Positions 13,868-63,163 of a DNA stretch of 64,000 bases are shown here, piece by piece. Each line of letters begins with the position of its first letter. Positions within the stretch are counted from its first letter, which is position 1. The stretch is from Candidatus Bipolaricaulota bacterium. GTDB taxonomy: Bacteria > Patescibacteriota > Patescibacteriia > UBA11705 > DATKZF01. Where the stretch lies: positions 359,089 through 423,088 of the forward strand of contig DATKZF010000003.1 in the NCBI GenBank assembly GCA_035528115.1, in the 5' to 3' direction. Under the pieces are notes generated by a model that saw only the letters and a list, made by a program, of their open reading frames with translations, did no database searches and had not been told where the DNA came from. The position numbers and the translations under genes were made by a program.

Positions 13868-14037
13868 ATTGAATAGGGGGCTAAAGAAGTCTTAAGAGGG
13901 CGGGTCGAGGTGAAGGGACAAGCGCGGGAGAAGGCAGACAAATTTTATTCGGGGTAGGCGGAAATTCGGATCACAACGCTCTCCCCTTAATATTAGCTTA
14001 TATATTGGAAAAAGAAAAAGGCCACGCGACCGTGACC

Positions 14038-14175
14038 TTAAGCTGATAATTTTTTTCTGCCTCTCTGGCGTCGAGTTTTCAAGATCGCTTGTCCGCTTTT
14101 ATCGCTCATTCTTTTTCTAAAGCCATGCTTTTTGCTCCTTTTTCTGGCAGTCGGCTGATATGTTCTTTTGGGCAT
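14038..14175 (-). CDS. rpmH: 50S ribosomal protein L34
   Basis: Not in the ORF track (45 aa). Reverse-strand translation: [45 protein letters not shown]. Followed on the minus strand by the hairpin GGTCACGGTCGCGTGGCC plus a T-tract at about 14008-14036. Confidence 0.85.
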
Positions 14176-14237
14176 ATTTAAAAGTTACTTTAATAATAAA
14201 ATTATTCTAACAAAGGAACGTCGTTTTGTCAACTGAC

Positions 14238-14326
14238 GCGGCCGCGGCCGGCGCGCAATCGCGCGCGTAGGAACAGGGCATTACCCTGTTCCTACATCGG
14301 CGACACATTCGTCGCCGCCGGCCGCT
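14238..14326. repeat. GC-rich multi-hairpin palindromic element, copy 3 (inside the rpmH-dnaA intergenic/origin region)
   Basis: Core palindrome GTAGGAACAGGGCATTACCCTGTTCCTAC at 14268-14296. Second hairpin GGCGACacattcGTCGCC shows compensatory changes relative to copies 1 and 2. Confidence 0.8.
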
Positions 14327-14329
14327 GAT

Positions 14330-14529
14330 TTGCATAATCCCAAAAATTCTATACAATGAATTTATATTATTCACACCTAATGCACAGCTTGCCAACTTTA
14401 TCCGCCTTGCGACAAATATTATCCACAGAAAAATTGTGTTATAATACGAACACAAAAAAATTCCCATATTTCCACTTGTTTTTACCTCTTTAAAATAAAA
14501 ATAAAGAAAAATTAATCCCCATTTTTCCT
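14330..14529. promoter_or_regulatory. oriC part 1 / dnaA promoter region with DnaA boxes
   Basis: Perfect DnaA box TTATCCACA at 14419-14427. One-mismatch box TTATTCACA at 14367-14375 and TTTATCCGC at 14397-14405. AT-rich. Confidence 0.55.
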
Positions 14530-15924
14530 ATGACTCAAGAAAATGAACAACTCTGGCAAACAGTGCTGGGGGAATTGGAGCTCAATTTGAGCAAGGCCAG
14601 CTTCACCACCTGGTTCAAGAACACCTTTATTCTCGACAACGAGGATGGCAGGATCATTATCGGCGTGCCCAACACTTTTTCTCAGGCATGGCTGAAACAG
14701 AAATATCATAATGATATTTTTAAGACATTGCAGAATCTGACAGGGAAAAGAATCAAAGACGTCAATTATAAAGTTCAGAATAAAAAAGACTTCAGACCCA
14801 CGGAAAAAATTCCGGTTCCCGTGGTCGAAGGGGTCGTTCGCGAAGAACTCATTTCCTCTCAGCCGACCACGCCTCTTCTCGAACAAAATAGCGGCGCGTA
14901 TCAAAACATTAACCGCAATTACGCTTTTGTCAGTTTTATAGTTGGTAAAAACAATGAATTGGCGCACGCCGCGGCCAAGGCCGTGGCCGAAAATCCGGGA
15001 TTCACTTATAATCCCCTTTTTATTTACGGCGGGGTCGGACTGGGAAAAACCCATCTGCTTCAATCCATTGGCAATGAAATCCTCATTAAAAACAGCCAAA
15101 AAAAGATTTTATACGTCACTTGCGAACAATTCACCAATGATTTTATCAATGGTATTTCTTCGGGCAATTCCGGTAAATTCCAATCTTATTATCGCGGTCC
15201 GGACGTGCTTTTAATAGACGACATTCAATTTTTAACCGGCAAAGAAGGCACGCAAGAAGCTTTCTTTCATACGTTCAATGATCTGCATCAACGAAACAAG
15301 CAAATAGTTATCACTTCGGATCGGCCGCCGAAAGCCATTGCCACTCTCGAGGACAGGCTTCTTTCAAGGTTTGAGTGGGGCATGATTGCCGATATTTCCC
15401 AGCCGGACATGGAAACGAGAATGGCTATTTTGGAGAAAAAATGCCTTGAAAAAAACTTTAATCTGAATAGGGACATTGTTCAATACATCACCCAAAACAT
15501 TCAAAACAACGTTCGGGAACTCGAAGGAGCTCTCAATAAGATTATCGCTTATCATCAATTGAATAAAATAGAACCGACGCTGGAAAACATTAAAAAAATA
15601 CTATTCTCTTTAAGCAATGCCGGCGGACAAAAAAACTCAGTCACTCCGCGGCACTTGATTGAAACCGTGGGTAAATTTTACGAAATAGGCCTTGAGGACA
15701 TTACAGGCAAGTGCAGACAAAAACGATTGGCCTTTCCCAGACAAATAATAATGTATTTGATGAGAGAAGAACTCAGGGAGTCTTATCCTTCAATCGGCCA
15801 AGAATTGGGAGGCAGGGATCATACCACGGCCATGCACGCGCACAGTAAAATTTTAAACTTGCTCGAAACGGATGAAAAGCTCAGACAAGAAATAAACCTG
15901 CTCAAACAACTGCTGTATCAATAA
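14530..15924 (+). CDS. dnaA: chromosomal replication initiator protein DnaA
   Basis: Walker A GGVGLGKTHLL, the LLIDDIQFL sensor, and the C-terminal DNA-binding helix DHTTAMHAHSKI. Confidence 0.95.
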   Translation: MTQENEQLWQTVLGELELNLSKASFTTWFKNTFILDNEDGRIIIGVPNTFSQAWLKQKYHNDIFKTLQNLTGKRIKDVNYKVQNKKDFRPTEKIPVPVVEGVVREELISSQPTTPLLEQNSGAYQNINRNYAFVSFIVGKNNELAHAAAKAVAENPGFTYNPLFIYGGVGLGKTHLLQSIGNEILIKNSQKKILYVTCEQFTNDFINGISSGNSGKFQSYYRGPDVLLIDDIQFLTGKEGTQEAFFHTFNDLHQRNKQIVITSDRPPKAIATLEDRLLSRFEWGMIADISQPDMETRMAILEKKCLEKNFNLNRDIVQYITQNIQNNVRELEGALNKIIAYHQLNKIEPTLENIKKILFSLSNAGGQKNSVTPRHLIETVGKFYEIGLEDITGKCRQKRLAFPRQIIMYLMREELRESYPSIGQELGGRDHTTAMHAHSKILNLLETDEKLRQEINLLKQLLYQ

Positions 15925-16188
15925 CGAAACACCCTGTTCATAAACTCGGGAAAAAAGAAAAAAAAACCTATTGATAAACGGTGGAAAAAAGACCTGGAGA
16001 AAAAAAACTTTAAAAGCCTGTTATTTATCAACAACGGACAGCACAAGAAACTCTCTTTTTTCCAGCCGTCTATTAACATCCCTCGTGTCAAAAAAGACCT
16101 ATAAAATAAGGCTGAAAAAACTTTTCCACCTAATCCACAGCATTATTATTAATAGTATTATAAATTTAAATTAATATTTATATATTAT
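15925..16188. promoter_or_regulatory. oriC part 2: dnaA-dnaN intergenic region with degenerate DnaA boxes and an AT-rich DNA-unwinding element
   Basis: TTATCAACA near 16023 and TAATCCACA near 16131 are each one mismatch from consensus. 16140-16188 is almost pure A/T (ATTATTATTAATAGTATTATAAATTTAAATTAATATTTATATATTATATG). Confidence 0.5.
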
Positions 16189-27758: not shown

Positions 27759-28105
27759 ACATGCCGAAGAAAAGCAAACCGGCTTCAAGTGCCCCTGCCC
27801 CGGATTTTGTGGAAGCATTTGCGGCCATTCGCGAAAAGCTTGGCTGCACTGATGAGAAATTGGGGCAAATCATCGCATTTGCGCTGGTCAGAGATCGTCG
27901 AATTGCGGCATTTTTCTCGACCACGCGCGATGGCGCGAAGCAATTCCGTGACATCGCGAGGCACATGAGGGATTGCCCCTGTTGCAGTCTCGCGCTTCAT
28001 CTGATCATGTCCAGCGTGTACGAGGTGCGCCTGGAAAACAAAAAAAAGGCGAAGACAAAACCTTCGCCTCGCAAGCAGTCAGTACCGACCAAAAAGGCCC
28101 AGTAG
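27755..28105 (+). CDS. putative zinc-binding anti-sigma-factor-like protein (HxxxCxxC ZAS motif)
   Basis: ARHMRDCPCCSLALHL contains H-x3-C-x2-C. Lys/Pro-rich basic tail. GC-rich. Confidence 0.35.
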   Translation: MNMPKKSKPASSAPAPDFVEAFAAIREKLGCTDEKLGQIIAFALVRDRRIAAFFSTTRDGAKQFRDIARHMRDCPCCSLALHLIMSSVYEVRLENKKKAKTKPSPRKQSVPTKKAQ

Positions 28106-28111
28106 CCTAAG

Positions 28112-28162
28112 CTCTCATGAGCCATTCGGCAACGCGGATCCAACATCGGGTCCGCTTTTTTA
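28112..28162 (+). terminator. shared terminator-like repeat R1 (GCCATTCGGCAACGCGGATCCAACATCGGGTCCGC plus T-tract)
   Basis: Near-identical copies at 29330-29395 and 29737-29780, each directly after a plus-strand minigene. Confidence 0.5.
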
Positions 28163-28213
28163 TTTTAAAATTTTTCTGAAATTGAAAAATGACCCTTGTG
28201 AAGAGCCACCTTG

Positions 28214-28753
28214 TTAAAAGTCTTGATCCGGAATCAGGCCGGCAATGCCACCGTTCACTAAACGGCGATGACTGATCTGAACCAGTGGAACCCGGCCCCC
28301 CTTAAATGTCGTGAAACCATGGCGTTGGGTTCTGTCCTCTATTGTCGCCACTCTGCTCCTAACTCGACGCAAATCGTCTTGCAGATCCTCCAACCGACCG
28401 TCAAGTTTCGAGAGATCCTTGCGGAGGCCGTCTTGTCCCTTTCTCACCTCTTCGCGCAGAGCGTCCTGACCCTGCTTCATCTTTCCCAGGTCGTCCGCAA
28501 GGGTTCCCACGCGGGCGTCGAGGTGATCCTGACCCTGCTTCATCTTTCCCAGGTCGTCCGCAAGGGTTCCCACGCGGGCGTCGAGGTGATCCTGACACTG
28601 CTTCATCTTTTCCAGGTCGTCCGCAAGGGTTCCCACGCGGGCGTCGAGGTGATCCTGACACTGCTTCACCTCCTTGCGGAGGGCGTCCTGGCCCGCCTTC
28701 ACTTCCTTGATACCTACTAGAATCTCACTTGTGTTGTCGAATTGCGTTTCCAT
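28214..28753 (-). CDS. coiled-coil protein with three tandem 21-aa repeats (QDHLDARVGTLADDLGKMKQG)
   Basis: Three copies of a 63-nt tandem DNA repeat at about 28440-28640. SD GAGAGGGA lies before the ATG. Architecture resembles the AT-rich ORF 62816..63163. The plus-strand ORF 28268..28720 is its antisense image. Confidence 0.5.
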   Translation of the reverse strand: METQFDNTSEILVGIKEVKAGQDALRKEVKQCQDHLDARVGTLADDLEKMKQCQDHLDARVGTLADDLGKMKQGQDHLDARVGTLADDLGKMKQGQDALREEVRKGQDGLRKDLSKLDGRLEDLQDDLRRVRSRVATIEDRTQRHGFTTFKGGRVPLVQISHRRLVNGGIAGLIPDQDF

Positions 28754-28869
28754 TGTTCAATCCCTCTCGAATTGGGGTGATGACACAAAACAAACAATTT
28801 AAAAATATCATTTATAAATACCAAAGGCAATAGGAAGAAACAACGGAGCTATTTTAAAATAAGCTGGCA

Positions 28870-28898
28870 TTGACAGTTTTTATGGAAAATGATATAAT
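28870..28898 (+). promoter_or_regulatory. sigma70 consensus promoter (TTGACA, 17 nt, TATAAT)
   Basis: Perfect hexamers at 28870-28875 and 28893-28898. Confidence 0.55.
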
Positions 28899-28956
28899 TA
28901 AATGTTGTTTTTCCACAGATTTTGACCTGTTTTCAACCAAGTAAAGGGGGCCTGCC

Positions 28957-29316
28957 ATGAGTGATGAGAGATTCAGCGCAGATGAGTTGGAGGAGTACAG
29001 AGTCTGGGGAAAGAGAATGGCGCGCAGGGCAAGGCAAGCCGACGCGCTGTATGCGCAAGTTGGGGCGGAAGTCAGCGCAAAGGTGGAAGCTGCCGAGCGC
29101 GCGCCAACACTAGAGGCGGTTCACTTCCTTGTCAGTCATTTCAAGCTGACGCCGAAGGAGTGGATGTACCTGTACTGGCGCTACGCTATGCGCCTTCATC
29201 ACAAGGACGTGGCTGTAAAGATGGAAGTGTCCCGCCCGCGCGTGTCACAGCTCGGCCGGGCAGTGCGAGAGAAGATGGGTCTGGAAGGTCTGAGGCTCCT
29301 CGGACGCAACAGCTGA
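28957..29316 (+). CDS. sigma-70 region 4-like helix-turn-helix DNA-binding protein
   Basis: KDVAVKMEVSRPRVSQLGRAVREKMGL resembles the sigma region 4.2 / LuxR-type HTH. The protein is too short for a full ECF sigma factor. SD AAAGGGGG before the ATG. Confidence 0.4.
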   Translation: MSDERFSADELEEYRVWGKRMARRARQADALYAQVGAEVSAKVEAAERAPTLEAVHFLVSHFKLTPKEWMYLYWRYAMRLHHKDVAVKMEVSRPRVSQLGRAVREKMGLEGLRLLGRNS

Positions 29317-29329
29317 CACATTTCACGGT

Positions 29330-29395
29330 CATTTCCGCCGACAGCTCTCATGAGCCATTCGGCAACGCGGATCCAACATCGGGTCCGCTTTTTGA
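29330..29395 (+). terminator. shared terminator-like repeat R2
   Basis: CTCTCATGAGCCATTCGGCAACGCGGATCCAACATCGGGTCCGC plus TTTTTG. The first 50 nt are identical to R1. Confidence 0.5.
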
Positions 29396-29412
29396 TTGAA
29401 TAAAGACTTTAA

Positions 29413-29440
29413 TTGACAATTAGGACGCTTTTATTATACT
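29413..29440 (+). promoter_or_regulatory. sigma70-like promoter (TTGACA, 16 nt, TATACT)
   Basis: Read directly from the sequence. Confidence 0.5.
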
Positions 29441-29486
29441 GAAAGCGAGACCGAGAAAATCTCGGCTAACAAAACAAGAAGGAGGA

Positions 29487-29720
29487 ATGGCGATGAAAGC
29501 GATATGGTATTTAATTGTGTATTTTATTCTACAAGCGTTTTTCACGGGCTTGCTGTATCTTCTTGTGGAGAAAATGTTATCACCGCATAAGATGGACTGG
29601 CCCAGCGAATACGGATGCTACATGTTTCTCCTGATCGTCATCGCAGGTGAACTTGCGACGTTGGGAGGTCTTCTCGTCGTGCATTTCGGAGGTCTTTTTA
29701 GGGATGAGGAGAAGTCTTAA
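29487..29720 (+). CDS. small two-helix membrane protein
   Basis: SD AAGGAGGA before the ATG. 77 aa, hydrophobic. Followed by repeat R3 at 29737-29780. Confidence 0.4.
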   Translation: MAMKAIWYLIVYFILQAFFTGLLYLLVEKMLSPHKMDWPSEYGCYMFLLIVIAGELATLGGLLVVHFGGLFRDEEKS

Positions 29721-29771
29721 AGAAACTACCAGTAACGGTATGCGGATCCAACATCGGGTCCGCTTTTCTTA

Positions 29772-30443
29772 TTATAAAATTTTGGTAGACTCGACTGATT
29801 TGGCTTCCTCGCGTTCTTTAAGCAGATAAATACCAAGATACGACAGCGGCGTGTAAAGCGCGCCCATGGCCACTTTGTACAGCCACCAAGTGATGATGAT
29901 GCTGATCAGGGTGCGAGTCGGATATATGCCCGCGAAAGCGATAATCATGAAAATCGTCGAGTCCAGCAATTGCGACCAAATGTTGGATAAAAGAGACCGC
30001 AACCAAAAAGCCTTTACTCCCAATTTTTCCCGGAAAAAGAAAAATGACAGCACGTCTTGATATTCGGCTATTAAAAAGGCGGTCAGCGACGCGACGCTCA
30101 TGCGAATGGACAGTCCGAAAATTTGATTATAGCCTTGCCTCGCCCATTCCCCATCCGCTGACCAAGGCATGGCCAGTGAGATAAATGAGTAGGCTATGAA
30201 CAAGGCCGCGCTGATGAATCCGGCTAATACAAAGAATTTGGCAAGGCGCTTGCCGAAAACTTCTCCGATGACGTCGGTCATTAAAAATACTACCGGGAAG
30301 GAAAACACGGCCACTGACAGATGCGAGCCGAAAATGAACGGCATCATTTTCAGACCGAGAGTATTGGCCGCAAAAAGCGAGGTGAGATAGATGGTCAACG
30401 CTATAATCAGTTTTTTGAATGATTTTTTGGTGAGATGAATCAT
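29772..30443 (-). CDS. yhhQ: queuosine precursor transporter, YhhQ/VUT family (DUF165)
   Basis: FLMTDVIGEVFG and SQLLDSTIFMIIAF match the family's conserved D/E and Q..DS motifs. Six or more TM helices. Confidence 0.6.
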   Translation of the reverse strand: MIHLTKKSFKKLIIALTIYLTSLFAANTLGLKMMPFIFGSHLSVAVFSFPVVFLMTDVIGEVFGKRLAKFFVLAGFISAALFIAYSFISLAMPWSADGEWARQGYNQIFGLSIRMSVASLTAFLIAEYQDVLSFFFFREKLGVKAFWLRSLLSNIWSQLLDSTIFMIIAFAGIYPTRTLISIIITWWLYKVAMGALYTPLSYLGIYLLKEREEAKSVESTKIL

Positions 30444-30578
30444 ATGGTATTTTTAATTAATAAAAAAACCGCCCGATAAGGCGGGAGTAAATTTCGAAAA
30501 CACCCCGTCCTTATCGGCATAAAAGGCGGGCGTAAATAAATCCTGACCAGGTTTTTATTTTGTTATTGTGGAGCATGT

Positions 30579-30840
30579 TTAAAATTTGGTTGGATGTCCA
30601 TATTTGATCAAATTTTCTTTTTTAATTTTGCTCCAACGTTTTATTTGGTTTTCTCGCTGCATAGCTTCTCTTAATGTATTATATTCTTCAAAGTAAATGA
30701 TTTTTACAGGTCTTCTATATTTTGTATATTTTGCGCCTTTGCCTTCATTGTGTCTTTTTTCTCTTGCTTGAATGTTTAAGCGAGATCCGGTATATAGGGA
30801 GTTATCATTACATCGCGCTATATACATGAAGTGCTTCATT
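30579..30840 (-). CDS. GIY-YIG nuclease superfamily protein (third paralog)
   Basis: MKHFMYIARCNDNSLYTGSRLNIQAREKRHNEG...REAMQRENQIKRW. ORF 30579..31082 trimmed to the ATG at 30838-30840. The upstream part is GC-rich repeat sequence, not coding. Confidence 0.6.
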
Positions 30841-31157
30841 GGGATAAGTAAAATTTTTTTAAGTGCCCCTCGACTTCGCTCGGGACATTCGACTCGTCTG
30901 GTGGTGGAACACCATGAGCGAGTCCGAGATTTCGAGGACGAGTCGAATGGTGGAGCCGAGTAGAGGAAGTTAGAACTTTTTTCGTCGCCGGAGCGCGCAA
31001 TACTGCCGATCCTGGCCGGGTACCTGCAGAGTACCACGACCGCACTGCTCGAGGATGTGCGAGAATATGACCTCGAGCACATGGCGAGAGTTCAGCATCC
31101 GAAGCAGCTCTGTCCAAACTCCTTGCCAGTTCGTAATTGGCCACGACGCAGTATGTA

Positions 31158-31186
31158 TTGACAGCAGATCCTATTAGTGCTAGGAT
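31158..31186 (+). promoter_or_regulatory. sigma70-like promoter (TTGACA, 17 nt, TAGGAT) inside the island
   Basis: TTGACA at 31158-31163. The -10 is imperfect. Confidence 0.3.
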
Positions 31187-31262
31187 ACCATATCCAGCCG
31201 CATCTTTCCCTCCCTTGCGTGCCCACCGAATTCCGGCAGGCAGACATCAGAGGGGAAGGGGG

Positions 31263-31514
31263 ATGGCTATGGGTCTTGCAAAGCATTTGCTACTCTGCGT
31301 AACGCTATTCCTAGCGTTTATGGCATTTTGGTATCTAACGATGGAAGGGTGGGCTAACGGCCAAGAAGGAGTCCAGTCGTGTGGTGGTGGATGCGGACGA
31401 ATTCTGTTTCTTCTGGAGGTCCTCTTGGCACAGACAGGCTCACTTTTGACGATGTGCATACTGCACTGGAGTGGACTGCCTCGTGGCAAGAGGCGAGATT
31501 CTCAGCAGTCCTAG
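31263..31514 (+). CDS. hypothetical small membrane protein (island cargo)
   Basis: SD GAAGGGGGA before the ATG. One or two hydrophobic helices and a CGGGCG motif. Trimmed from ORF 31137..31514. Confidence 0.3.
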   Translation: MAMGLAKHLLLCVTLFLAFMAFWYLTMEGWANGQEGVQSCGGGCGRILFLLEVLLAQTGSLLTMCILHWSGLPRGKRRDSQQS

Positions 31515-31856
31515 TTCCGAAGTTGTTCTGGCGGAACCGATCATCCGTGTTCCGCCTTTTTGTTTTCCCGCAAGAAACTCATGCGGCTTGATGCAATAGA
31601 TGACTCTCGGGTCATCGAACAGATGGGTCGGAAACGCCATTCCGACCCATTTCCATTGAACAGCGCTCATCGACAGCGAAGAAGACCGTCAATTCTTGCG
31701 CCGTCGTAGCCCTGCACGTAGTCGGACCCAATCACAGCGAACGGCAAACTGAGGTTGTCGGACCCGAGGATCCTTGATAGTCGTCGCGCCGACTCAGGAT
31801 CGCGCTCCACGTCGCGGCGACGATAGAATTGGAGCACGGTTGCCCTTCGTCCGCAA

Positions 31857-32360
31857 CTACGCGGAAATGTCTGCCAATTCCAATGACATGCTCGCCGCAA
31901 GATCGCCTGGACTGAATCTCATGCCACAGTACTCATCGCCACCGGCTCCGGTGACCAGCGCTCTCCGAAGAACGTTCCTATCAATGATCCTCCGATCACA
32001 AGACGATACAGCCACCGGCGGGACTCCACCAATACGAAACTGGGTCACCGACTCGATCTGCTGGGGCGTGGCGAATCGAAGTTTCTTGACGCCGACCAGT
32101 TCCGCGACCCTGCGAACGTCCAGTCGGTCAGATCCTAGTATTATGCAAGCGATGAATACATCCTCCCTTGGAGCATGCAAGACGAGTGTCTTGATGATGT
32201 TTTCCGATGCGGTTTCGAGGGCGGCAGAGGCCTGCGAGGTCGTCTTTCCAGACTGCTCGTGCATCATGAACTGGGCCCTCAGACCTACGCAACTTGCCAG
32301 TCTCTTCGCGCGGTCGATGGCTCCGGTGTCCAACTGGCGCTCCTTTCCAATCAGGTTGGC
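31857..32360 (-). CDS. YbaK/ProX-like aminoacyl-tRNA deacylase domain protein (island cargo)
   Basis: IKTLVLHAP...RLDVRRVAELVGVKKLRFATPQQIESVTQFRIGGVPPVA parallels the YbaK KTLV...GGVSP pattern. The 5' end is uncertain: no in-frame ATG at the expected position, so a GTG/TTG start is possible. The ORF-track entry extends to 32642. Confidence 0.45.
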   Translation of the reverse strand, partial: ANLIGKERQLDTGAIDRAKRLASCVGLRAQFMMHEQSGKTTSQASAALETASENIIKTLVLHAPREDVFIACIILGSDRLDVRRVAELVGVKKLRFATPQQIESVTQFRIGGVPPVAVSSCDRRIIDRNVLRRALVTGAGGDEYCGMRFSPGDLAASMSLELADISA

Positions 32361-32934
32361 GTGACAGACTTTGGGCGCACGTCTGAACGGTGGTAGGGGC
32401 GTGACGGACGGGGAGGTCGTGCTTGCACCCACAGCGGCACCCTCGAGGAACGAGGTCAGCGATTGGCCTGTGCCATGCCTCACCTGGCGTTGGGAACATG
32501 TCCGGCCGTCCGTTTCCGCGGGCACGCGGTGTACTCCTCTGCTGGTGTTGTTCATACTACATGCTTGGCCGCCGGTCGTCTTGGCCGCCGGCATTTGTGT
32601 TTCACTCATGCTAATTGTACGGAGATTGCGCATGCTTGTCAACCAGGCATCTCACTGAATTCCTCAAGCCGGCCTGCGTGGGTTCAGCGCAAACGGGGCC
32701 GTTGACAGCCTTCCAGTTCGCTGCTACGAAGACCACAGAGATCTCTGCGCCCGTGCAAAATGGATGGCCCGGTAGCTGCAGGATCGAACTGACGCCCGTC
32801 TTCACGACCTCTCGGGTCTTCCGTTCGCAACGGCCTCGCTCGGTCGCACCGGCCACGCGGAGCGAATGAGACAAGGTCGCAACCATCGCGACGGCATAAG
32901 TGTAGAATATATATACTACGTGAAGATAGATGTT

Positions 32935-32980
32935 AGAGCGAGAGAGATAGACACCTAGGAATGTCTATCTCTCTCGCTCT
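32935..32980. repeat. perfect 19-bp-arm palindrome AGAGCGAGAGAGATAGACA-cctaggaa-TGTCTATCTCTCTCGCTCT
   Basis: Arms at 32935-32953 and 32962-32980 are exact reverse complements. The 8-nt spacer contains CCTAGG. It lies about 350 bp upstream of the serine recombinase gene. Confidence 0.85.
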
Positions 32981-32985
32981 CTATC

Positions 32986-33297
32986 TTGAGTACTCTTGGA
33001 CGAGCCGTGTGCGACCGGGACCGCCTGCCGCTGCATGCTTTCGGTGTCTCCGCCACCCCCTGCCCGGACCAACCCAGGCGCGATACGCTTGTGGTGTTCA
33101 ACTACATGCCATTGACACAAGATGACATCGAGGATCTCAAGGGGCTGCTCAGGGCCGAGTACGGCGAGGAGGTGCCGCACGACGAGGCCTGGGACGTTGG
33201 CCTTTCTCTAGTCGAGCTGTGTCGAGTCGCTCTCCGGCCAGCCCCCGCGGCAAGGGAGTCAGACCCGACTGTGGATAACTCGCAGCTTGCCAAATAG
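32986..33297 (+). CDS. hypothetical small acidic protein upstream of the recombinase (possible accessory/directionality factor)
   Basis: ORF in GC-rich DNA. The segment MPLTQDDIEDLKGLLRAEYGEEVPHDEAWDVGLSLVEL looks protein-like. Low confidence because GC-rich DNA yields many spurious ORFs. Confidence 0.25.
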   Translation: MSTLGRAVCDRDRLPLHAFGVSATPCPDQPRRDTLVVFNYMPLTQDDIEDLKGLLRAEYGEEVPHDEAWDVGLSLVELCRVALRPAPAARESDPTVDNSQLAK

Positions 33298-33337
33298 CCT
33301 GGCCAGCTCTACGATCCACAATGAACGCTCGCCACCT

Positions 33338-34954
33338 ATGAAGCATTGCTATATTTACGCTAGAAAATCGTCGGAGTCCGAGGACCGACAGGTTCTGTCC
33401 ATCGACTCGCAGGTCAGTGAGCTCGAGCAGCTGGCCGTCCGGCTGGGACTGCCGGTCACCCGGGTGTTTTCGGAGTCGAAGTCCGCCAAGACTCCCGGGA
33501 GGCCGGTTTTCACCGACATGCTAGAACGTCTTCGTAATCCAGAGGGGAGCGTGGTGCTGTGTTGGAAACTCGATCGGCTGGCCCGAAACCCGCTTGATGG
33601 CGGGGCAGTGATTTGGGCGGTCGAGGAGCGCCAGATCGGGGAGATCGTCACTCCGGGTCGGACCTTCCGCAACACCGCCGACGACAAGTTCTGGATGCAA
33701 CTCGAATTCGGGATGGCCAAGAAGTACGTGGACGACTTGTCTGACAACATCAAGCGCGGAAACAGGGCCAAGCTCCAGCGCGGCCAGATCCCGGGGCAGG
33801 TCCCCCTCGGCTACACCAAGGACCCCTGCACAGGCGACACGATCCCCGATCCGGAACGGTTCGAGTTGGTTCGGCGCATTTGGCAGCGGCTTGTTGATGG
33901 CCACCGGCCGGCAGAGATCCTGAGGGTCGCCTCGAGCGACTGGGGTCTGCGAACGCGAGGTTCCAAGAGGACCGCGAGCGGGCCGCTATCGCCGTCGTAC
34001 TTCTACCGGTTGCTCTCGAATCCGTTTTACGCCGGCGTGGTTCAGCGTGCGGGCCAGGTCTACGTCGGTGCCCACCAGGCGATGGTCAGCCAACATGAGT
34101 TCGACCTGGCCCAGAGGATGTTGGCGGGCAGGTCCAACTCGAGATCTCAGCGCCACGAGCACACCTACGCCGGGCTACTGCGCTGCGGGGTGTGTGGCCG
34201 CATGTTCACCGGAGAGAGCCACACCAACCGCTACGGATCCACGTACGTGTACTACCGGTGCACTCGAAAGCGGCTGGGTAGCAGGGTGTGCCCCCAGCCC
34301 TACGTGCCCGAGAAGGTCATCGACGAGCAGGTGCTCGACTACCTCGGAAGGCTCTCAGTGCCGAGGCAGTTTGTGGACTGGGCCTGCAAGCGCCTCGAGC
34401 GCCTCGCAGCAGAGGATCAAGCGACCGAGCAGGTGGCGCAGTCGTCGATCGAGAAGGGCCTCGCTGCGGCCCAACGCAAACTCGAGAACCTGACGCAGCT
34501 GCGATTGTCCGAGATGATTGGTGACGAAGAATTCGTACTAGAGCGAGCCAGACTGCTGGACGAGGTCGCCGGTTTCAAGGCCCGCCTGGCCGCGCCCTCG
34601 ACCACGGGTCCCGCGTGGCTGCAGCCCACGAAGGAGGCGCTCGCCCTCGCCTCAAGGGCCGAAAATCTGTATCGCAGTGGACTGAAGGACGACAAACGGA
34701 CCATCCTGCGGGCCATCGGGTCGAACTTCTTCATCAGGGACCGGATTGTGCTAATCCAAGCCAAGAAACCGTTTCGCATTCTGGCCGCCGCCCGCGATTC
34801 CTCCGAGCCCGAGCCACCGCGGGTCGAACCCCGGGATTTTGGCTCAGCCAAACAAAAAAACGAGCCATCGAGTGGTCGTTTTCTCCTGTGGTGGACCCTA
34901 AGGGATTCGAACCCTTGGCCTCCTCCATGCCATGGAGGCGCTCTAGCCAACTGA
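33338..34954 (+). CDS. large serine recombinase (resolvase/invertase catalytic domain, recombinase domain and zinc-ribbon)
   Basis: N-terminal YIYARKSSESEDRQVLSIDSQ carries the catalytic Ser motif. The central region matches the recombinase domain. Zinc ribbon CGVCGRMFTG...YYRCTRKRLGSRVCPQP. Start trimmed to the ATG at 33338. The 3' end overlaps tRNA-Ala, so the true stop is uncertain. Confidence 0.85.
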   Translation: MKHCYIYARKSSESEDRQVLSIDSQVSELEQLAVRLGLPVTRVFSESKSAKTPGRPVFTDMLERLRNPEGSVVLCWKLDRLARNPLDGGAVIWAVEERQIGEIVTPGRTFRNTADDKFWMQLEFGMAKKYVDDLSDNIKRGNRAKLQRGQIPGQVPLGYTKDPCTGDTIPDPERFELVRRIWQRLVDGHRPAEILRVASSDWGLRTRGSKRTASGPLSPSYFYRLLSNPFYAGVVQRAGQVYVGAHQAMVSQHEFDLAQRMLAGRSNSRSQRHEHTYAGLLRCGVCGRMFTGESHTNRYGSTYVYYRCTRKRLGSRVCPQPYVPEKVIDEQVLDYLGRLSVPRQFVDWACKRLERLAAEDQATEQVAQSSIEKGLAAAQRKLENLTQLRLSEMIGDEEFVLERARLLDEVAGFKARLAAPSTTGPAWLQPTKEALALASRAENLYRSGLKDDKRTILRAIGSNFFIRDRIVLIQAKKPFRILAAARDSSEPEPPRVEPRDFGSAKQKNEPSSGRFLLWWTLRDSNPWPPPCHGGALAN

Positions 34955-34965
34955 GCTAAGGGCCC
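34889..34965 (-). tRNA. tRNA-Ala (anticodon GGC), G3:U70, CCA encoded
   Basis: Reverse complement GGGCCCTTAGCTCAGTTGGCTAGAGCGCCTCCATGGCATGGAGGAGGCCAAGGGTTCGAATCCCTTAGGGTCCACCA. Confidence 0.85.
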
Positions 34966-34988
34966 TTGGTTTGGGAATTGGAAACTGA

Positions 34989-35063
34989 TGGTGGGCGCAG
35001 GAGGACTCGAACCTCCAACCAATGGCTTAAGAGGCCACTGCTCTACCATTGAGCTATGCGCCC
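34989..35063 (-). tRNA. tRNA-Lys (anticodon CTT), CCA encoded
   Basis: Reverse complement GGGCGCATAGCTCAATGGTAGAGCAGTGGCCTCTTAAGCCATTGGTTGGAGGTTCGAGTCCTCCTGCGCCCACCA. Confidence 0.8.
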
Positions 35064-35068
35064 GAGAC

Positions 35069-35145
35069 TGGTGCAGCCGGAAGGATTTGAACCCTCAACC
35101 CCTTGGTCCGAAGCCAAGTGCTCTATCCAGTTGAGCTACGACTGC
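35069..35145 (-). tRNA. tRNA-Arg (anticodon TCG), CCA encoded
   Basis: Reverse complement GCAGTCGTAGCTCAACTGGATAGAGCACTTGGCTTCGGACCAAGGGGTTGAGGGTTCAAATCCTTCCGGCTGCACCA. Confidence 0.75.
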
Positions 35146-35151
35146 ATTAGA

Positions 35152-49640: not shown

Positions 49641-49916
49641 ACTTTTGCCAATACCGGAGACGGGACGCTACCTTGGTTGACTGCCCTCATCCCCCGTACC
49701 GCGTTAATAATAATAAAAACTTCTTTAAATAACTCTAACACATATCGGCAAACCGCGCAAGAAGGGGAAAGGGAGCGAAATCTCATTGCATAAATTGATT
49801 TGGTGTCGTAAAATACTATTACGAGATTACAGATTTGAATACAGATGATACGAGATAGGAGTGAGAGAGTTAATCTGTATAATCTTGTATGTTTATCGGT
49901 AATCTCGTATATTCAT

Positions 49917-50873
49917 ATGTCAAATAAAACGGAAATAGAAAAACTTATCCAAGAGTTTTTGGAAGATCTCGAAGTCACTTATAATCGTTCGCTTAGAACC
50001 GTGAATAATTATCATTTTTATTTATCTCGCTTTGCGGGGTATTTGTCCGGAAAAAACATAAAAGTTCCCGGCGGCATTACCCTGGATGATGTCAGGCAAT
50101 ATCGACTGTGGCTTAATCGTCTTCAAAGCAACAAAAAAGAGTTTTTGAAATCGAATACGCAAAATTATCATTTGATCGCGGTGCGCGCCTGGTTGAAGTA
50201 TTTGGCAAAAAGAGACATCAAGGCCTTGGCCGCTGAAAAAATAGATTTGGCCAGAGTGCCGGAGCGTTCCGTGGAATTCCTGGACGGCTCGGATTTGGAA
50301 AGATTGCTGGAAGCACCTTTGACTTCCAAAAACCCGGGGATTATTAAAAAACGCGACAAAGCCATTTTGGAAACATTTTTCAGCACGGGCTTGCGCGTGT
50401 CCGAATTGGCCAATTTGAAAATAGATTCCATTAATTTGAAAAAAGACGAATTCACGGTTCGCGGCAAAGGCGACAAGCCGCGCATAGTTTTTTTATCGAA
50501 TCAATCTCGCCACTGGCTGTCGGAATATTTGAAAATGAGAAAGGATTCCAATCCTTTTCTTTTTATTTCACATGATCGAGCGGCCAAGGGACGAAAAACC
50601 GTGAACGACGCCGGTTTGACGCCGAGAAGCATCCAGCGATTGGTGGAGCGTTATTCGAAAGCCGCGGGGTTGACCAAAAAAGTCACTCCGCATACCATGC
50701 GGCACAGCTATGCCACGGATTTATTGATGAATGGGGCCGATATTAGAAGCGTTCAATCCATGCTGGGGCATTCTTCCATCACCACTACGCAGATTTACAC
50801 GCACATTACCAATCAGCAGTTGCATGACGTGCATAAGGCGTTTCATGGCAGGAGTCGTCGGAAGAAGTCATGA
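49917..50873 (+). CDS. xerC: tyrosine recombinase XerC/XerD family
   Basis: C-terminal HTMRHSYATDLLMNGADIRSVQSMLGHSSITTTQIYTH containing the catalytic R-H-R-Y residues. Start trimmed to the ATG at 49917. Confidence 0.85.
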   Translation: MSNKTEIEKLIQEFLEDLEVTYNRSLRTVNNYHFYLSRFAGYLSGKNIKVPGGITLDDVRQYRLWLNRLQSNKKEFLKSNTQNYHLIAVRAWLKYLAKRDIKALAAEKIDLARVPERSVEFLDGSDLERLLEAPLTSKNPGIIKKRDKAILETFFSTGLRVSELANLKIDSINLKKDEFTVRGKGDKPRIVFLSNQSRHWLSEYLKMRKDSNPFLFISHDRAAKGRKTVNDAGLTPRSIQRLVERYSKAAGLTKKVTPHTMRHSYATDLLMNGADIRSVQSMLGHSSITTTQIYTHITNQQLHDVHKAFHGRSRRKKS

Positions 50874-50952
50874 ATCACGTATCATGTAACACACAACACA
50901 TAACATGAAACATGAATCATGGAGCACGTATCACATATCACGTATCATGAAG

Positions 50953-51017
50953 CATGCCTGCTCCTCGAGTCTTAGCGACGAGATAGCATGCTCCGAGTCG
51001 AAGACCGGCAGGCAGGC
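50953..51017. repeat. tRNA-family GC-rich repeat T4 (inverted orientation, no tRNA adjacent)
   Basis: Reverse complement CCGGTCTTCGACTCGGAGCATGCTATCTCGTCGCTAAGACTCGAGGAGCAGGCATGC aligns with T1. Confidence 0.65.
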
Positions 51018-58619: not shown

Positions 58620-58976
58620 TTAAAATCCACTTTTACGATGATATTGTCCTTTTCTTGTCTTGTTTTCCTTGTCCATGGTCGGCAAACTGTACACGGAAAC
58701 GCCGATAAAGGGCTTCATGGAATTAGTTGTTCTGTCGTCGAGTCGTTTCGCTCTGGAAACATTGACTAATAGCTTGCAAATAGCTCTGCTATGGCGCAGT
58801 TTCTTGGCGGTAAGAACAAAGAAATTCTCATCACTTGATGATATTGACCAATCCAATGATTCTGGGTCTTTGAGATATCTTTTGATGTGGGATTGCAGTC
58901 GGGTAATGTCCACATCCCCGTTGCCGTTTCCTCCGTACATCTTTTGTAGGCTCTCGATCACGTCGGAGAGTTTCAT
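58620..58976 (-). CDS. hypothetical protein
   Basis: 118-aa ORF, no family recognised. The C-terminal part may be read-through. Confidence 0.3.
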   Translation of the reverse strand: MKLSDVIESLQKMYGGNGNGDVDITRLQSHIKRYLKDPESLDWSISSSDENFFVLTAKKLRHSRAICKLLVNVSRAKRLDDRTTNSMKPFIGVSVYSLPTMDKENKTRKGQYHRKSGF

Positions 58977-59182
58977 GAAGCGCGCCTCCTTTGTTTTACT
59001 TTATATAATATGTGTTCAGTTGTATTTTGCAAGTATTTGAAAAATTTTTCGATTATTGATATAATGAATAAAGAGATAGTTTTTGTTGTTATATCTTTTG
59101 CGACCCACGTATTTATTTATTTTTAGCAAAAAATTGAAATAAGCGCGAGCATAACTTGGTGTTTTTGTTAAAAAATGGTATA

Positions 59183-59206
59183 AAATGTTTCACGTGAAAC
59201 ATTTTC
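59183..59206. promoter_or_regulatory. 24-bp perfect palindrome AAAATGTTTCACGTGAAACATTTT (copy 1 of 3)
   Basis: Further copies at 59797-59826 (CAGGTG variant) and 59913-59935. CACGTG core. Confidence 0.6.
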
Positions 59207-59253
59207 GAATTTGATACGTGATTCATGTTCCGTGTTCCATGATTCATGAAAAC

Positions 59254-59330
59254 GCACCCGTAGCTCAGTTGGATAGAGCGAGACACTCCTAACGTCTAGG
59301 TCGCAGGTTCAATCCCTGCCGGGTGCACCA
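59254..59330 (+). tRNA. tRNA-Arg (anticodon CCT), CCA encoded
   Basis: GCACCCGTAGCTCAGTTGGATAGAGCGAGACACTCCTAACGTCTAGGTCGCAGGTTCAATCCCTGCCGGGTGCACCA. Followed by hairpin CATCCTTCGcgctatCGAAGGATG. Confidence 0.8.
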
Positions 59331-59440
59331 TCCTTCGCCAAGGCTTCGGCTGGCAGGCCATCCTTCGCGCTATCGAAGGATGCCCTTTGAAGCTTTAGCG
59401 AAGAAGGGCTTAAATTCAAAAAGTTAGTCGCTATATTTAC

Positions 59441-59576
59441 GCACGCGCTTCGCCTGCCGTCTTCGACTCCCGTTCGGCCATGAGCTCACGGCCAAGTGGC
59501 GAGGTCACTCCCTTCGTTCGAGGGCCTGAGTGGCCCCTCAGGGCCGTCGAAGGCAGACTCGAGGAGCAGGCAGGGA
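59441..59576. repeat. tRNA-adjacent GC-rich repeat T3
   Basis: GTCTTCGACTCC...GGCCATGAGCTCACGGCC...CAGACTCGAGGAGCAGGC aligns with T1 and T2. Confidence 0.65.
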
Positions 59577-59796
59577 TGGCACCGCCATATTCGCGATAGT
59601 AGAGGATGTCCTTTGAGGCTATGCCGAAGAAGATTGTTATTAAATAAATGTGGTCAGCGTGTTCATTTGGGAATAATTCGCAACAAGAGTCCTTATTGTC
59701 TACAATGGTGTGAACTTTTGTCGTAAAAATGATTGAATTTGAGCAATGCAGAATCCCCTGTCTTGGTTGTGAGTATGTAATTACAAATCGAGAATT

Positions 59797-59826
59797 TAAA
59801 AAATGTTTCAGGTGAAACATTTTTTT
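59797..59826. promoter_or_regulatory. palindrome copy 2 AAAAAATGTTTCAGGTGAAACATTTTTTTT
   Basis: One central mismatch relative to copy 1. Confidence 0.55.
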
Positions 59827-59912
59827 TGATGGATGGGAATGTTTGTTTCCAAATTCTTTTTAATCTTGAACTGCTATTTTTTTAAATTCGTTTTATTTAT
59901 TGTTTCACTTCG

Positions 59913-59935
59913 AAAAATGTTTCACGTGAAACATT
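59913..59935. promoter_or_regulatory. palindrome copy 3 AAAAATGTTTCACGTGAAACATT
   Basis: Perfect CACGTG-core palindrome. An extra half-site TGTTTCAC lies at 59901-59908. Confidence 0.6.
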
Positions 59936-59994: not shown

Positions 59995-60216
59995 CTAAAT
60001 ATTTATTGAAATTAGCTTATTTGAAGTGGTTTTGCCTGATTTTATGAAGATTTGATTTTTTGATACGTCAAAATGTTTTGCCAAAAGCGCGACAAGCCTT
60101 TCGTTTGCCTTACCCTTTTCAGGGATTATCGTTAATTTAGCCTTGAATTCAGTGTCAGATAGGGGAATAAGCTCTTCTTCTTTTGCTCTGGTTATCACTT
60201 TTACTTTTATGATCAT
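59995..60216 (-). CDS. DUF167/YggU family protein
   Basis: 73 aa. The segment IIPEKGKANERLVALLAKHFDVSKNQIFIKSGKTTSNK matches UPF0235 pattern. Confidence 0.55.
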   Translation of the reverse strand: MIIKVKVITRAKEEELIPLSDTEFKAKLTIIPEKGKANERLVALLAKHFDVSKNQIFIKSGKTTSNKLISINI

Positions 60217-61530: not shown

Positions 61531-62367
61531 ATGGCAATTTTAGAAAGACTCAAAAACATGGGTGCCCGAGTGGTTGGGTTGGACGAGGGATCAAAATTCA
61601 ATAAGGAAACGGAGAGGTTGAAGAACGAAAAAGGAGTAACAGAGGAAGAGGCACAAAAAGAGATTTTTCATGAAACGCTGGAGCAGCTTAAGCAGGAGAT
61701 GATGTTGACTGGGACAATAGACAGAAACTCTGCTGTTTTTCGTAAATTTGTAGAATCGGCAGGTGAAATTTTCGGGCCCGAAATGATGAATCAGTTTGAG
61801 ATGGAAGCTAATAATCCTGAGAATTTTAATGATTTTCCCAAAAGTCCATCGGGGAAGGATTTAAATGGCGCGAGATCTGGATATAGCCGACGATTTAAGG
61901 GCGAGGTGCCGGATAGCAACGTATTGCGTGATGTCGCGGCGAAAAATATGGAGATTAACGCGGCCATAGACGCATTTGTTGCAGGGACCGGTGGCCCTGA
62001 GTCGCTCCAAAAATTAGTTGAAGATAATCCGGAGCTGGGTGCGTATCTGGGTAAAATTATTAAAAATAAAGAAAGATTAAATAAGCACGAAAAAAAATTT
62101 GGCCGAGACATTGCGTTTGAAAATGAAATGAAAGGCTTTAAGGAGACGGCAAAAAAAGAGCTTACCGATTTGCTGTGGAAAAATCCGGTAAAGTGGGCAA
62201 AATCTGTCTTGCATGCGGGTCTTAATCCGAGTTTTAAAAATTTTTTTAAGTTATGCAGTGACTCAGCTGAGTTCATGGGGAAATCCGTTTGGTCAGGCGC
62301 TAAATTTATTTTTAAGGGAATAAAAACTGGAGTTGCCGGCGTCAGAAAATTAACGGCAAAATTATGA
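61531..62367 (+). CDS. hypothetical protein
   Basis: 278 aa, charged/helical. Putative promoter TTGATT, 17 nt, TATAAT at about 61470-61500. 4-nt overlap (ATGA) with the next gene. Confidence 0.45.
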   Translation: MAILERLKNMGARVVGLDEGSKFNKETERLKNEKGVTEEEAQKEIFHETLEQLKQEMMLTGTIDRNSAVFRKFVESAGEIFGPEMMNQFEMEANNPENFNDFPKSPSGKDLNGARSGYSRRFKGEVPDSNVLRDVAAKNMEINAAIDAFVAGTGGPESLQKLVEDNPELGAYLGKIIKNKERLNKHEKKFGRDIAFENEMKGFKETAKKELTDLLWKNPVKWAKSVLHAGLNPSFKNFFKLCSDSAEFMGKSVWSGAKFIFKGIKTGVAGVRKLTAKL

Positions 62368-62765
62368 ATGACAATGAGAATTTGCAACAACTGATTCAAT
62401 CCTCGTTTATTGCCAATGATAAAAAGCAAACGTTGTTCGATTATTTAAATACCCAAGGAGCAACCGAGGAATTTTTTAAATTATTTGATCAATATTTGGT
62501 TGAGGAAACAGAAAAAATAAAAAATAGGTATATGGAAATCATAAAAGGATTCGACTCGAAGGCTGCGACTTTGGACCAGGAGACTAATGCAAAGAAAGAA
62601 CAGTTATCAAAAGATTTGGAAGTGAGATTGTCAAACGCCGAATTAAACGCGGGAGAAGAGGATGCGACTTGGGACGAATATTATAGGGCATTAGATAAAT
62701 TGCGGGAGGATTACCAGGCTGAAATTAAAAAGATAACGTCAGAAGCGGTACTTTCAACACTTTAA
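62364..62765 (+). CDS. hypothetical protein (operon partner of 61531..62367)
   Basis: 133 aa, helical. Confidence 0.4.
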   Translation: MNDNENLQQLIQSSFIANDKKQTLFDYLNTQGATEEFFKLFDQYLVEETEKIKNRYMEIIKGFDSKAATLDQETNAKKEQLSKDLEVRLSNAELNAGEEDATWDEYYRALDKLREDYQAEIKKITSEAVLSTL

Positions 62766-62815: not shown

Positions 62816-63163
62816 TTACAGACTTGATTTTGGAAAAGGCTCCATTTCAAGAATTTTTTTTGCCTCAGTTTCTTCAAGCACATTTTTATTTTTCAAGACC
62901 TTAATCAGTTCTATCAATTTCGTGTCTTCTTTTCTCATCAGTATTGTAAGATCGCCACGCAAATCAGCAAGTTTATCGTCGAGGTAGTCTTTCGTGACCA
63001 TTTGCGATCTAATGCCGCCGATCTCTGATTTCATGCTGCCGATCTCGGATTTCATACTGCCGATTTCGGATCGTATTTCTTCAAATTGCGGATTGACATT
63101 ATCTTCTATTACTTTGCCCATTTCCACGGCTATTTTTTGTAGGTCTTCATTGGTTAACGTCAT
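62816..63163 (-). CDS. coiled-coil protein with short tandem repeats (SEIGSMK x3), AT-rich relative of 28214..28753
   Basis: Layout parallels the GC-rich coiled-coil gene: N-terminal region, tandem repeats, then KDYLDDKLADLRGDL. Confidence 0.45.
   Translation of the reverse strand: MTLTNEDLQKIAVEMGKVIEDNVNPQFEEIRSEIGSMKSEIGSMKSEIGGIRSQMVTKDYLDDKLADLRGDLTILMRKEDTKLIELIKVLKNKNVLEETEAKKILEMEPFPKSSL

What the first reader, a model, noticed from the sequence alone, without database searches (positions are those of the whole stretch)
59183..59935. Triplicated 20-24-bp CACGTG-core palindrome around tRNA-Arg(CCT)
AAAATGTTTCACGTGAAACATTTT occurs three times within 750 bp, twice perfect and once with a CAGGTG variant, and there is an extra half-site. 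The copies flank a tRNA gene and a GC-rich repeat. Perfect dyad symmetry of this length is typical of dimeric transcription-factor operators. Three operators suggest cooperative control of the divergent genes 58620..58976 and 59995..60216 and the tRNA.
Basis: seen in the sequence. Interest (0 to 1): 0.55.

Follow-up and report, generated by a model that had tools for sequence, protein, structure and literature searches.

The report
Chromosomal parS centromere sites near oriC
The three palindromes are textbook copies of parS, the bacterial "centromere" that the ParB protein binds near the replication origin so daughter chromosomes can be pulled apart; this is an ordinary, well-known feature and not a new transcriptional operator.

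Summary
TGTTTCACGTGAAACA occurs at 59186-59201 and 59918-59933 (both perfect) and at 59804-59819 (CAGGTG variant), with an extra TGTTTCAC half-site at 59901-59908. No shuffle of the window gave three such matches. The sequence is the published chromosomal parS consensus TGTTNCACGTGAAACA. The exact 18-mer turned up in more than 120 genomes from many phyla. In 46 of 120 of those 8-kb blocks a ParB homologue lies beside it, in 47 a ParA homologue, and 80 of 120 hold two or more sites. The window also carries rnpA-yidD | dnaA-dnaN, DnaA boxes and the cumulative GC-skew minimum at about 14-18 kb. The cluster therefore sits about 44 kb from oriC, which is where parS sites normally lie. The operator reading fails on three counts: both named genes are on the minus strand, two of the three sites lie at the converging 3' ends of transcription units, and no regulator gene is adjacent. 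One gap remains. No parB or parA gene lies in the window or within 10 kb of either end, and the rest of the genome could not be read. The "GC-rich repeat" between the sites is a member of a dispersed GC-rich repeat family, unrelated to parS. Already known; low interest.

The parts
59182..59205 (.). parS site 1. Perfect 16-bp consensus at 59186-59201 inside a perfect 24-bp palindrome, AAAATGTTTCACGTGAAACATTTT. It lies 49 bp upstream of tRNA-Arg(CCT) and directly after a candidate extended -10 element (TGgTATAAA, 59176-59184).
   Evidence: The promoter reading is my own inspection of the sequence; the scan did not list it because the -35 hexamer is weak.
59800..59823 (.). parS site 2, TGTTTCAGGTGAAACA at 59804-59819, with one central mismatch. 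Its reverse complement, TGTTTCACCTGAAACA, is the form a review lists for Streptomyces coelicolor. It is flanked by A6 and T8.
   Evidence: RNA hairpin of -10 kcal/mol.
59901..59908 (+). Isolated half-parS, TGTTTCAC, 9 bp upstream of site 3.
   Evidence: Half-parS binding by some ParB proteins is described in PMC7022226.
59914..59935 (.). parS site 3. Perfect 16-bp consensus at 59918-59933; palindrome AATGTTTCACGTGAAACATT of 20 bp. It lies 60 bp downstream of the stop codon of the minus-strand Sua5-DUF167 operon.
59254..59330 (+). tRNA-Arg(CCT), located between parS 1 and parS 2. It is a neighbour of the centromere, not part of it.
59445..59580 (+). Core of a dispersed GC-rich repeat with invariant ends GGTCTTCGACTCC ... 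AGACTCGAGGAGCAGGC. It is flanked by imperfect 60-nt direct repeats at 59348-59406 and 59574-59632. It lies between parS 1 and parS 2 but is unrelated to parS.
13868..16188 (.). Replication-origin region: rnpA(-) | DnaA boxes at 14367 and 14419 | dnaA 14530-15924(+) | DnaA boxes at 16025 and 16131 | dnaN 16189(+). The cumulative GC-skew minimum falls here. It is the reference point that makes the parS cluster origin-proximal, about 44 kb away.

Best explanation
The three palindromes are chromosomal parS sites, the centromere of a ParABS partition system. Shown here: they match the parS consensus exactly, they are clustered, and they lie about 44 kb from dnaA/oriC. Inferred from established knowledge of the family (PMC7022226): dimers of ParB (Spo0J) recognise each 16-bp site through their helix-turn-helix domains. 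The dimers bind CTP, close into clamps and slide onto flanking DNA, building a partition complex several kb wide. That complex loads SMC condensin and is moved by ParA, which separates the newly replicated origins. The adjacent half-site may add weak ParB contacts. Any effect on the tRNA-Arg(CCT) promoter (site 1), or on termination of the converging transcripts (sites 2 and 3), would be secondary.
For: (1) Sequence: two sites match TGTTNCACGTGAAACA 16/16 and one 15/16, with 0.06 matches expected by chance. (2) Literature: TGTTNCACGTGAAACA and TGTTTCACGTGAAACA are given as the conserved chromosomal parS in B. subtilis, C. glutamicum, Hyphomonas, Burkholderia chrI and others. The CACCTG/CAGGTG centre is listed for S. 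coelicolor. (3) Independent association test: the exact 18-mer hit at least 120 genome blocks across Actinomycetota, Bacillota, Pseudomonadota, Bacteroidota, Spirochaetota, Chloroflexota, Saccharibacteria and more. Of these blocks, each at most 8 kb, 46 encode a Spo0J/ParB homologue (tblastn E from 1e-18 to 1e-76), 47 a Soj/ParA homologue and 7 a dnaA. About 0.2% would be expected for any single-copy gene. (4) Clustering is typical: 80 of 120 foreign blocks hold two or more sites. (5) Origin proximity: DnaA, DnaN, RnpA and YidD are identified by Pfam, DnaA boxes flank dnaA, and the GC skew changes sign with its cumulative minimum at about 14-18 kb. (6) The motif is confined to this one cluster in the 64-kb window and in the 10 kb read beyond each end, as expected of a centromere rather than a regulon or a dispersed repeat.
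Against: No parB, parA or smc gene was found. tblastn with Spo0J and Soj gave no hit in the window at E<=1. Pfam on nearly all ORFs of 110 aa or more found none. The precomputed Pfam annotation of the 10 kb beyond each window end shows none either. The rest of the genome (contigs of 438 kb and 763 kb) could not be read, so the presence of the cognate ParB is unverified. No close relatives were retrievable to test whether the sites are conserved at this position. Binding itself was not tested.
Confidence: 0.9

Rival explanations
1. Operators of a local dimeric transcription factor that cooperatively controls tRNA-Arg(CCT) and the flanking genes.
For: The sites show perfect dyad symmetry. Site 1 directly follows a candidate extended -10 element (TGgTATAAA, 59176-59184), so it would cover the start site of a tRNA-Arg transcript (my inspection). 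ParB-family proteins can silence nearby promoters in some plasmids and a few chromosomes (PMC7022226).
Against: The identical 18-mer is present in more than 120 genomes of unrelated phyla, beside parAB, and no local regulon motif behaves like that. Genes 58620..58976 and 59995..60216 are both on the minus strand. Sites 2 and 3 lie downstream of converging units, not in promoters. No helix-turn-helix regulator gene lies next to the cluster. The motif occurs nowhere else in the roughly 84 kb read, so there is no regulon.
Confidence: 0.04
2. The palindromes act mainly as bidirectional intrinsic terminators. They would act between the + strand tRNA-Arg unit and the minus-strand Sua5-DUF167 operon.
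For: Sites 2 and 3 sit exactly between converging transcription units. Site 2 is flanked by A6 and T8, and site 3 is followed by T5 on the minus strand. The predicted RNA hairpins are -6.5 to -10.5 kcal/mol, and site 2 has z-scores of -3.1 and -6.0 on the two strands.
Against: The stems contain only 2 G-C pairs. The terminator scan did not call them, whereas it did call G+C-rich terminators nearby in this genome, such as TCCGGCCGATTCGGCCGGA followed by a T-run after cspA. Site 1 lies upstream of a gene, not after one. A terminator role cannot explain identity to a motif conserved across phyla. At most this is a secondary role.
Confidence: 0.04
3. Terminal inverted repeats or recombination sites of a small mobile element that carries the tRNA and the GC-rich block.
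For: Sites 1 and 2 form a 31-nt inverted repeat, 87% complementary, bracketing 580 bp (I1). The bracketed GC-rich core is a dispersed repeat. A tyrosine recombinase gene lies 8 kb away.
Against: Because each site is a palindrome, any two copies necessarily register as inverted repeats. The other copies of the GC-rich repeat (17.6, 18.0 and 50.9 kb; L121:2270-2393) have no parS beside them. There is no transposase, no target-site duplication around the parS pair, and no other copy of the motif in 84 kb.
Confidence: 0.02

Closest known systems
Chromosomal parS of the ParABS system (B. subtilis Spo0J sites, consensus TGTTNCACGTGAAACA; also Hyphomonas, Corynebacterium, Caulobacter, Mycobacterium)
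   Same: The 16-bp sequence is identical. There are several copies in a short cluster, the cluster is close to the origin, and a half-site is present.
   Different: The parAB operon is not beside the sites or within the 84 kb that could be read. In this AT-rich intergenic setting the palindrome extends to 24 bp (AAAA/TTTT arms). Across other genomes only the first flanking base on each side shows a preference: A 49% and T 62%.
Streptomyces coelicolor parS variant tGTTTCACCTGAAACa (as listed in PMC7022226, Table 1)
   Same: Site 2 (TGTTTCAGGTGAAACA) is its exact reverse complement.
   Different: Here it is the minority form, one of three sites.
Noc-binding site (NBS, ATTTCCCGGGAAAT) of Bacillota
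   Same: It is a 16-bp palindrome bound by a ParB-family CTPase clamp.
   Different: The specificity positions differ. The sites here are of the parS type at every position.
Plasmid ParB/KorB operators that silence transcription
   Same: They use the ParB-family clamp on a palindromic site and can repress nearby promoters. Site 1 overlaps a candidate tRNA promoter.
   Different: The plasmid sites have other sequences. The context here is chromosomal housekeeping genes (Sua5, cspA, tRNAs).

Membership tests
Chromosomal parS (ParABS centromere) | 16-bp palindrome matching TGTTNCACGTGAAACA | tested here: met
   The matches are 16/16, 15/16 and 16/16. The consensus is taken from PMC7022226 and 27 further papers that hold the exact 16-mer.
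Chromosomal parS (ParABS centromere) | The same sequence is associated with parB/parA genes across bacteria | tested here: met
   Of 120 foreign blocks (8 kb or less) carrying the exact 18-mer, 46 encode a ParB homologue and 47 a ParA homologue. Hits of 35-50% identity over about 270 aa show that the queries were valid.
Chromosomal parS (ParABS centromere) | Origin-proximal position | tested here: met
   dnaA lies at 14530-15924 and dnaN at 16189-17319, with rnpA, yidD, DnaA boxes and the GC-skew minimum at 14-18 kb. The cluster is about 44 kb away. Contigs of this organism reach 763 kb, so that is at most about 6% of the chromosome.
Chromosomal parS (ParABS centromere) | A cognate ParB (HTH plus GERRxRA CTP-binding N-domain) encoded in the same genome | tested here: inconclusive
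   ParB is absent from the window (tblastn at E<=1; Pfam) and from the 10 kb beyond each end. The remaining 350 to 680 kb or more of the genome could not be read with these tools.
Chromosomal parS (ParABS centromere) | ParB nucleation and CTP-dependent spreading from the sites; a segregation or SMC-loading defect when they are removed | not testable with these tools
   This needs ChIP-seq, EMSA or genetics.
Chromosomal parS (ParABS centromere) | Conservation of the sites at the syntenic position in relatives | tested here: inconclusive
   The metagenome scan with the adjacent Sua5 protein returned only relatives at 40% identity or less, none with parS within 4 kb. Same-species contigs are 100% identical, so they carry no information.
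Transcription-factor operator set | Sites lie in the promoters of the genes they control, a regulator gene is nearby, and the motif is specific to one lineage's regulon | tested here: not met
   Only site 1 is near a candidate promoter, while sites 2 and 3 lie between converging 3' ends. No regulator gene is adjacent. The motif is shared by many phyla.
Intrinsic (rho-independent) terminator | G+C-rich stem-loop followed by a U-tract | tested here: not met
   U-tracts are present at sites 2 and 3, but the stems have only 2 G-C pairs and fold at -6.5 to -10.5 kcal/mol. The scan that found G+C-rich terminators nearby did not call them.
MITE / mobile-element terminal inverted repeat | Ends of a unit that is repeated in the genome, with target-site duplication | tested here: not met
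   There is no further copy of the motif in about 84 kb. Other copies of the enclosed GC-rich repeat lack parS.

The most novel reading that the evidence does not exclude
The centromere may be wired into local gene expression. Site 1 covers the start of a tRNA-Arg(CCT) promoter, and sites 2 and 3 double as the bidirectional terminators of the converging tRNA and Sua5-DUF167 units. ParB loading would then modulate a rare-codon tRNA. Alternatively, the genome may keep perfect parS sites while having lost or relocated a canonical parAB operon, in which case the sites would be used mainly for SMC loading or by a divergent binder.
Probability: 0.07. Interest if true: 0.35.

Novelty: already known. 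Interest (0 to 1): 0.1.

Why it matters
For annotation, the sites mark the chromosomal centromere of an uncultured bacterium. NCBI labels identical proteins as coming from a Candidatus Bipolaricaulota MAG. Together with dnaA-dnaN, the sites fix the origin domain of the assembly. They predict that the organism has a ParB with canonical parS specificity. Beyond that, the finding is a standard instance of one of the most conserved DNA motifs in bacteria and opens no new question.

Tried and rejected
(1) Searching for parB, parA or smc. I used tblastn with Spo0J and Soj, motif regexes, Pfam on about 50 window ORFs and look-ups 10 kb beyond both window ends. Nothing was found. The tools do not permit walking further, because only window proteins can be looked up.

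(2) Synteny test in relatives. The single metagenome scan, with Sua5 as query, gave 16 loci at 31-40% identity and none with parS, so it was uninformative.

(3) Rfam on 57-62 kb at E<=1 and on the whole window at gathering score gave only tRNAs and sub-threshold noise. There was no family for the GC-rich block.

(4) Folding the GC-rich block on either strand gave z-scores of only -2.5 and -2.9, with no convincing single structure.

(5) Literature searches for parS or ParB together with Patescibacteria or Candidate Phyla Radiation found nothing relevant. My initial guess that the organism is a CPR bacterium rested on gene content only. NCBI's own label, Bipolaricaulota, does not support it, so I left the point open.

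(6) Considered and rejected: a dif/Xer site (no asymmetric 6-bp spacer, three copies), a DnaA-box cluster (none within 13 kb), Rex-, CRP- or FNR-type operators (half-sites in the opposite orientation, from memory), and a Noc NBS.

Full report
**Observation**

The region was read directly. TGTTTCACGTGAAACA is present at 59186-59201 and 59918-59933, both perfect, and at 59804-59819 with one central change (CAGGTG). At up to 2 mismatches the window holds exactly these three matches, against 0.06 expected, and 0 of 100 dinucleotide-preserving shuffles reached three. Relaxing to 3 mismatches adds nothing anywhere in the 64 kb.

- Copy 1 is a perfect 24-bp palindrome (59182-59205).
- Copy 2 is palindromic over 24 to 26 bp apart from the central change.
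- Copy 3 is palindromic over 20 bp only.
- An extra half-site, TGTTTCAC, lies at 59901-59908.
- tRNA-Arg(CCT) occupies 59254-59330 on the + strand.
- A 58-68% GC block follows at 59331-59640, in otherwise 19-40% GC intergenic DNA.

**What it is**

I scanned one representative genome of each of 185,579 species for the exact 18-mer ATGTTTCACGTGAAACAT. They came from Actinomycetota, Bacillota, Alpha-, Beta-, Gamma- and Zetaproteobacteria, Bacteroidota, Spirochaetota, Chloroflexota, Acidobacteriota, Saccharibacteria and others, and many blocks held 2 to 4 copies a few hundred bp apart. A motif shared verbatim by such distant phyla cannot be the operator of a lineage-specific regulator.

It is the conserved chromosomal parS site. 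A full-text search finds TGTTNCACGTGAAACA and TGTTTCACGTGAAACA only in papers on ParB-parS. The review PMC7022226 gives TGTTNCACGTGAAACA as the highly conserved palindromic parS of most bacterial chromosomes. Its per-species table covers B. subtilis, C. glutamicum, Hyphomonas, Burkholderia chrI and others. That table also lists tGTTTCACCTGAAACa for S. coelicolor, which is the reverse complement of copy 2 here.

- 46 blocks encode a ParB homologue (35-50% identity, E down to 4e-76).
- 47 blocks encode a ParA homologue.
- 7 blocks carry dnaA.

For a single-copy gene in a block of 8 kb or less, about 0.2% would be expected. In addition, 80 of the 120 blocks contain two or more sites at up to 1 mismatch, so a cluster of three is typical.

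**Position in the chromosome**

The window contains the classic origin arrangement. rnpA (13505-13867, -) and yidD lie on one side, and dnaA (14530-15924, +) and dnaN (16189-17319, +) on the other, all with strong Pfam matches. DnaA boxes lie at 14367 and 14419, and at 16025 and 16131. The GC skew changes from negative to positive, and its cumulative minimum falls at about 14-18 kb.

The parS cluster is thus about 44 kb from oriC. Contigs of this organism reach 438 kb and 763 kb, so the cluster lies within roughly the nearest 6% of the chromosome at most. That is the origin domain, where parS sites are found in the species tabulated in PMC7022226.

**How it most likely works**

This part is inferred from the family and was not tested here. 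ParB dimers recognise each 16-bp site, bind CTP, close into clamps and slide onto neighbouring DNA. The resulting partition complex loads SMC and is moved by ParA (PMC7022226). The neighbouring half-site may add weak contacts, as reported for P. aeruginosa and some other ParB proteins.

**The missing piece**

No parB, parA or smc gene was found. The window gave no hit by tblastn at E<=1 or by Pfam on nearly all ORFs of 110 aa or more. The 10 kb beyond each window end also has none. The rest of the genome cannot be reached with these tools. The membership feature 'cognate ParB in the same genome' therefore stays inconclusive, and it is the main reason confidence is 0.9 and not higher.

A test for conservation of the sites in relatives also failed. 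The only retrievable relatives of the adjacent Sua5 gene are at most 40% identical and show no parS nearby.

**Rival explanations**

The motif is universal. Two of the three sites lie between the converging ends of the tRNA-Arg unit and the Sua5-DUF167 operon. No regulator gene is adjacent. Site 1 does abut a candidate extended -10 element (TGgTATAAA, 59176-59184; my inspection, not listed by the scan), so ParB occupancy could incidentally affect tRNA-Arg(CCT) transcription.
- *Intrinsic terminators.* Sites 2 and 3 are well placed and have T-runs. However, their stems contain only two G-C pairs (-6.5 to -10.5 kcal/mol), and the scan that found G+C-rich terminators nearby did not call them. This is at most a secondary role.
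- *Mobile-element ends.* The 'inverted repeat' between sites 1 and 2 follows trivially from each site being a palindrome. Other copies of the enclosed GC-rich repeat have no parS.

**The GC-rich block**

Its core (59452-59578) has a 92% identical copy in an AT-rich intergenic spacer about 10 kb away, 3.8 kb beyond the window end (L121:2270-2393). Shorter relatives lie at 17627-17688 and 18045-18135, abutting tRNA-Leu and tRNA-Gly, and at 50955-51015 in reverse orientation.

An alignment shows invariant ends, GGTCTTCGACTCC and AGACTCGAGGAGCAGGC, around a variable, hairpin-rich centre. A short-read contig of the same species breaks inside the element, at window 59545, as expected for a repeat. 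No Rfam family matches it. It is a small dispersed GC-rich palindromic repeat, MITE- or REP-like, that happens to sit between two parS sites. It is not part of the centromere.

**Verdict**

This is a canonical, origin-proximal parS cluster. The kind is already known, and the instance is merely unannotated in an uncultured bacterium. NCBI labels identical proteins, HUT22495.1 to HUT22532.1, as Candidatus Bipolaricaulota. Interest is low.

Noticed in passing
window 59445-59580; 17627-17688; 18045-18135; 50955-51015 (reverse); L121:2270-2393: A family of dispersed GC-rich repeats with invariant ends, GGTCTTCGACTCC ... AGACTCGAGGAGCAGGC, and a variable hairpin-rich centre. Three of the five copies directly abut tRNA genes (Leu, Gly, Arg-CCT). 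There is no Rfam match. A short-read contig breaks inside one copy. It could be a MITE- or REP-like element or a small structured RNA.
   Followed up: partly
window 59348-59406 and 59574-59632: Imperfect direct repeats of about 60 nt (75-77% identical) flank the GC-rich core downstream of tRNA-Arg(CCT). The first contains a 10-bp hairpin, CCATCCTTCG/CGAAGGATG. Their origin is unexplained: duplication on insertion, or two units of another repeat.
   Followed up: no
window 59212-59248 and 50870-50955: Short AT-rich repeats of the type TGATACGTGATTCATG / CCATGATTCATG lie in the 5' leader of tRNA-Arg(CCT). They recur, reverse-complemented and reiterated, next to the GC-rich repeat copy at 50.9 kb.
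   Followed up: no
window 10172-10286, 10342-10409, 10726-10838, 12776-12880; L121:4041-4193: A second repeat family, 87-94% identical. It flanks the small GIY-YIG gene at 10423-10719 and lies just upstream of the one at 12889-13176. A third GIY-YIG ORF is at 30579-31082. These are possibly mobile GIY-YIG cassettes.
   Followed up: no
window about 24300-35150: The segment contains a RhuM-family gene (24874-25878), a double-zinc-ribbon protein, several ORFs with no family, and a large serine recombinase (33287-34954) whose ORF runs into the tRNA-Ala/Lys/Arg cluster (34889-35145). GC rises to 54-57% at 30-36 kb against 44% for the window. It is probably an integrated element at a tRNA locus.
   Followed up: no
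window 13868-14529 and 15925-16188: Candidate oriC. DnaA boxes lie at 14367 (8/9) and 14419 (9/9) upstream of dnaA, and at 16025 and 16131 (8/9) between dnaA and dnaN. The cumulative GC-skew minimum falls here.
   Followed up: partly
window 49845-50873: A XerC/XerD-type tyrosine recombinase (Phage_integrase plus SAM_1 domains), followed immediately by a reverse-oriented copy of the GC-rich repeat.
   Followed up: no
whole window; L123:1-1033: NCBI labels identical proteins as 'Candidatus Bipolaricaulota bacterium' (MAG TPA, HUT22495.1 etc.). The gene content looked to me more like a small-genome Patescibacteria-type organism: repeated Wzy_C/TPR O-antigen-ligase-like proteins, TrbC/T4SS pilins, and many small ORFs with no family. 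The taxonomic label may deserve a check.
   Followed up: no
window 61531-62367, 62364-62765, 62816-63163, 58620-58976: Four neighbouring proteins of 278, 133, 115 and 118 aa have no Pfam family. The first three look rich in coiled coil and charged residues. The 115-aa protein contains a tandem EIGSMKS repeat.
   Followed up: no
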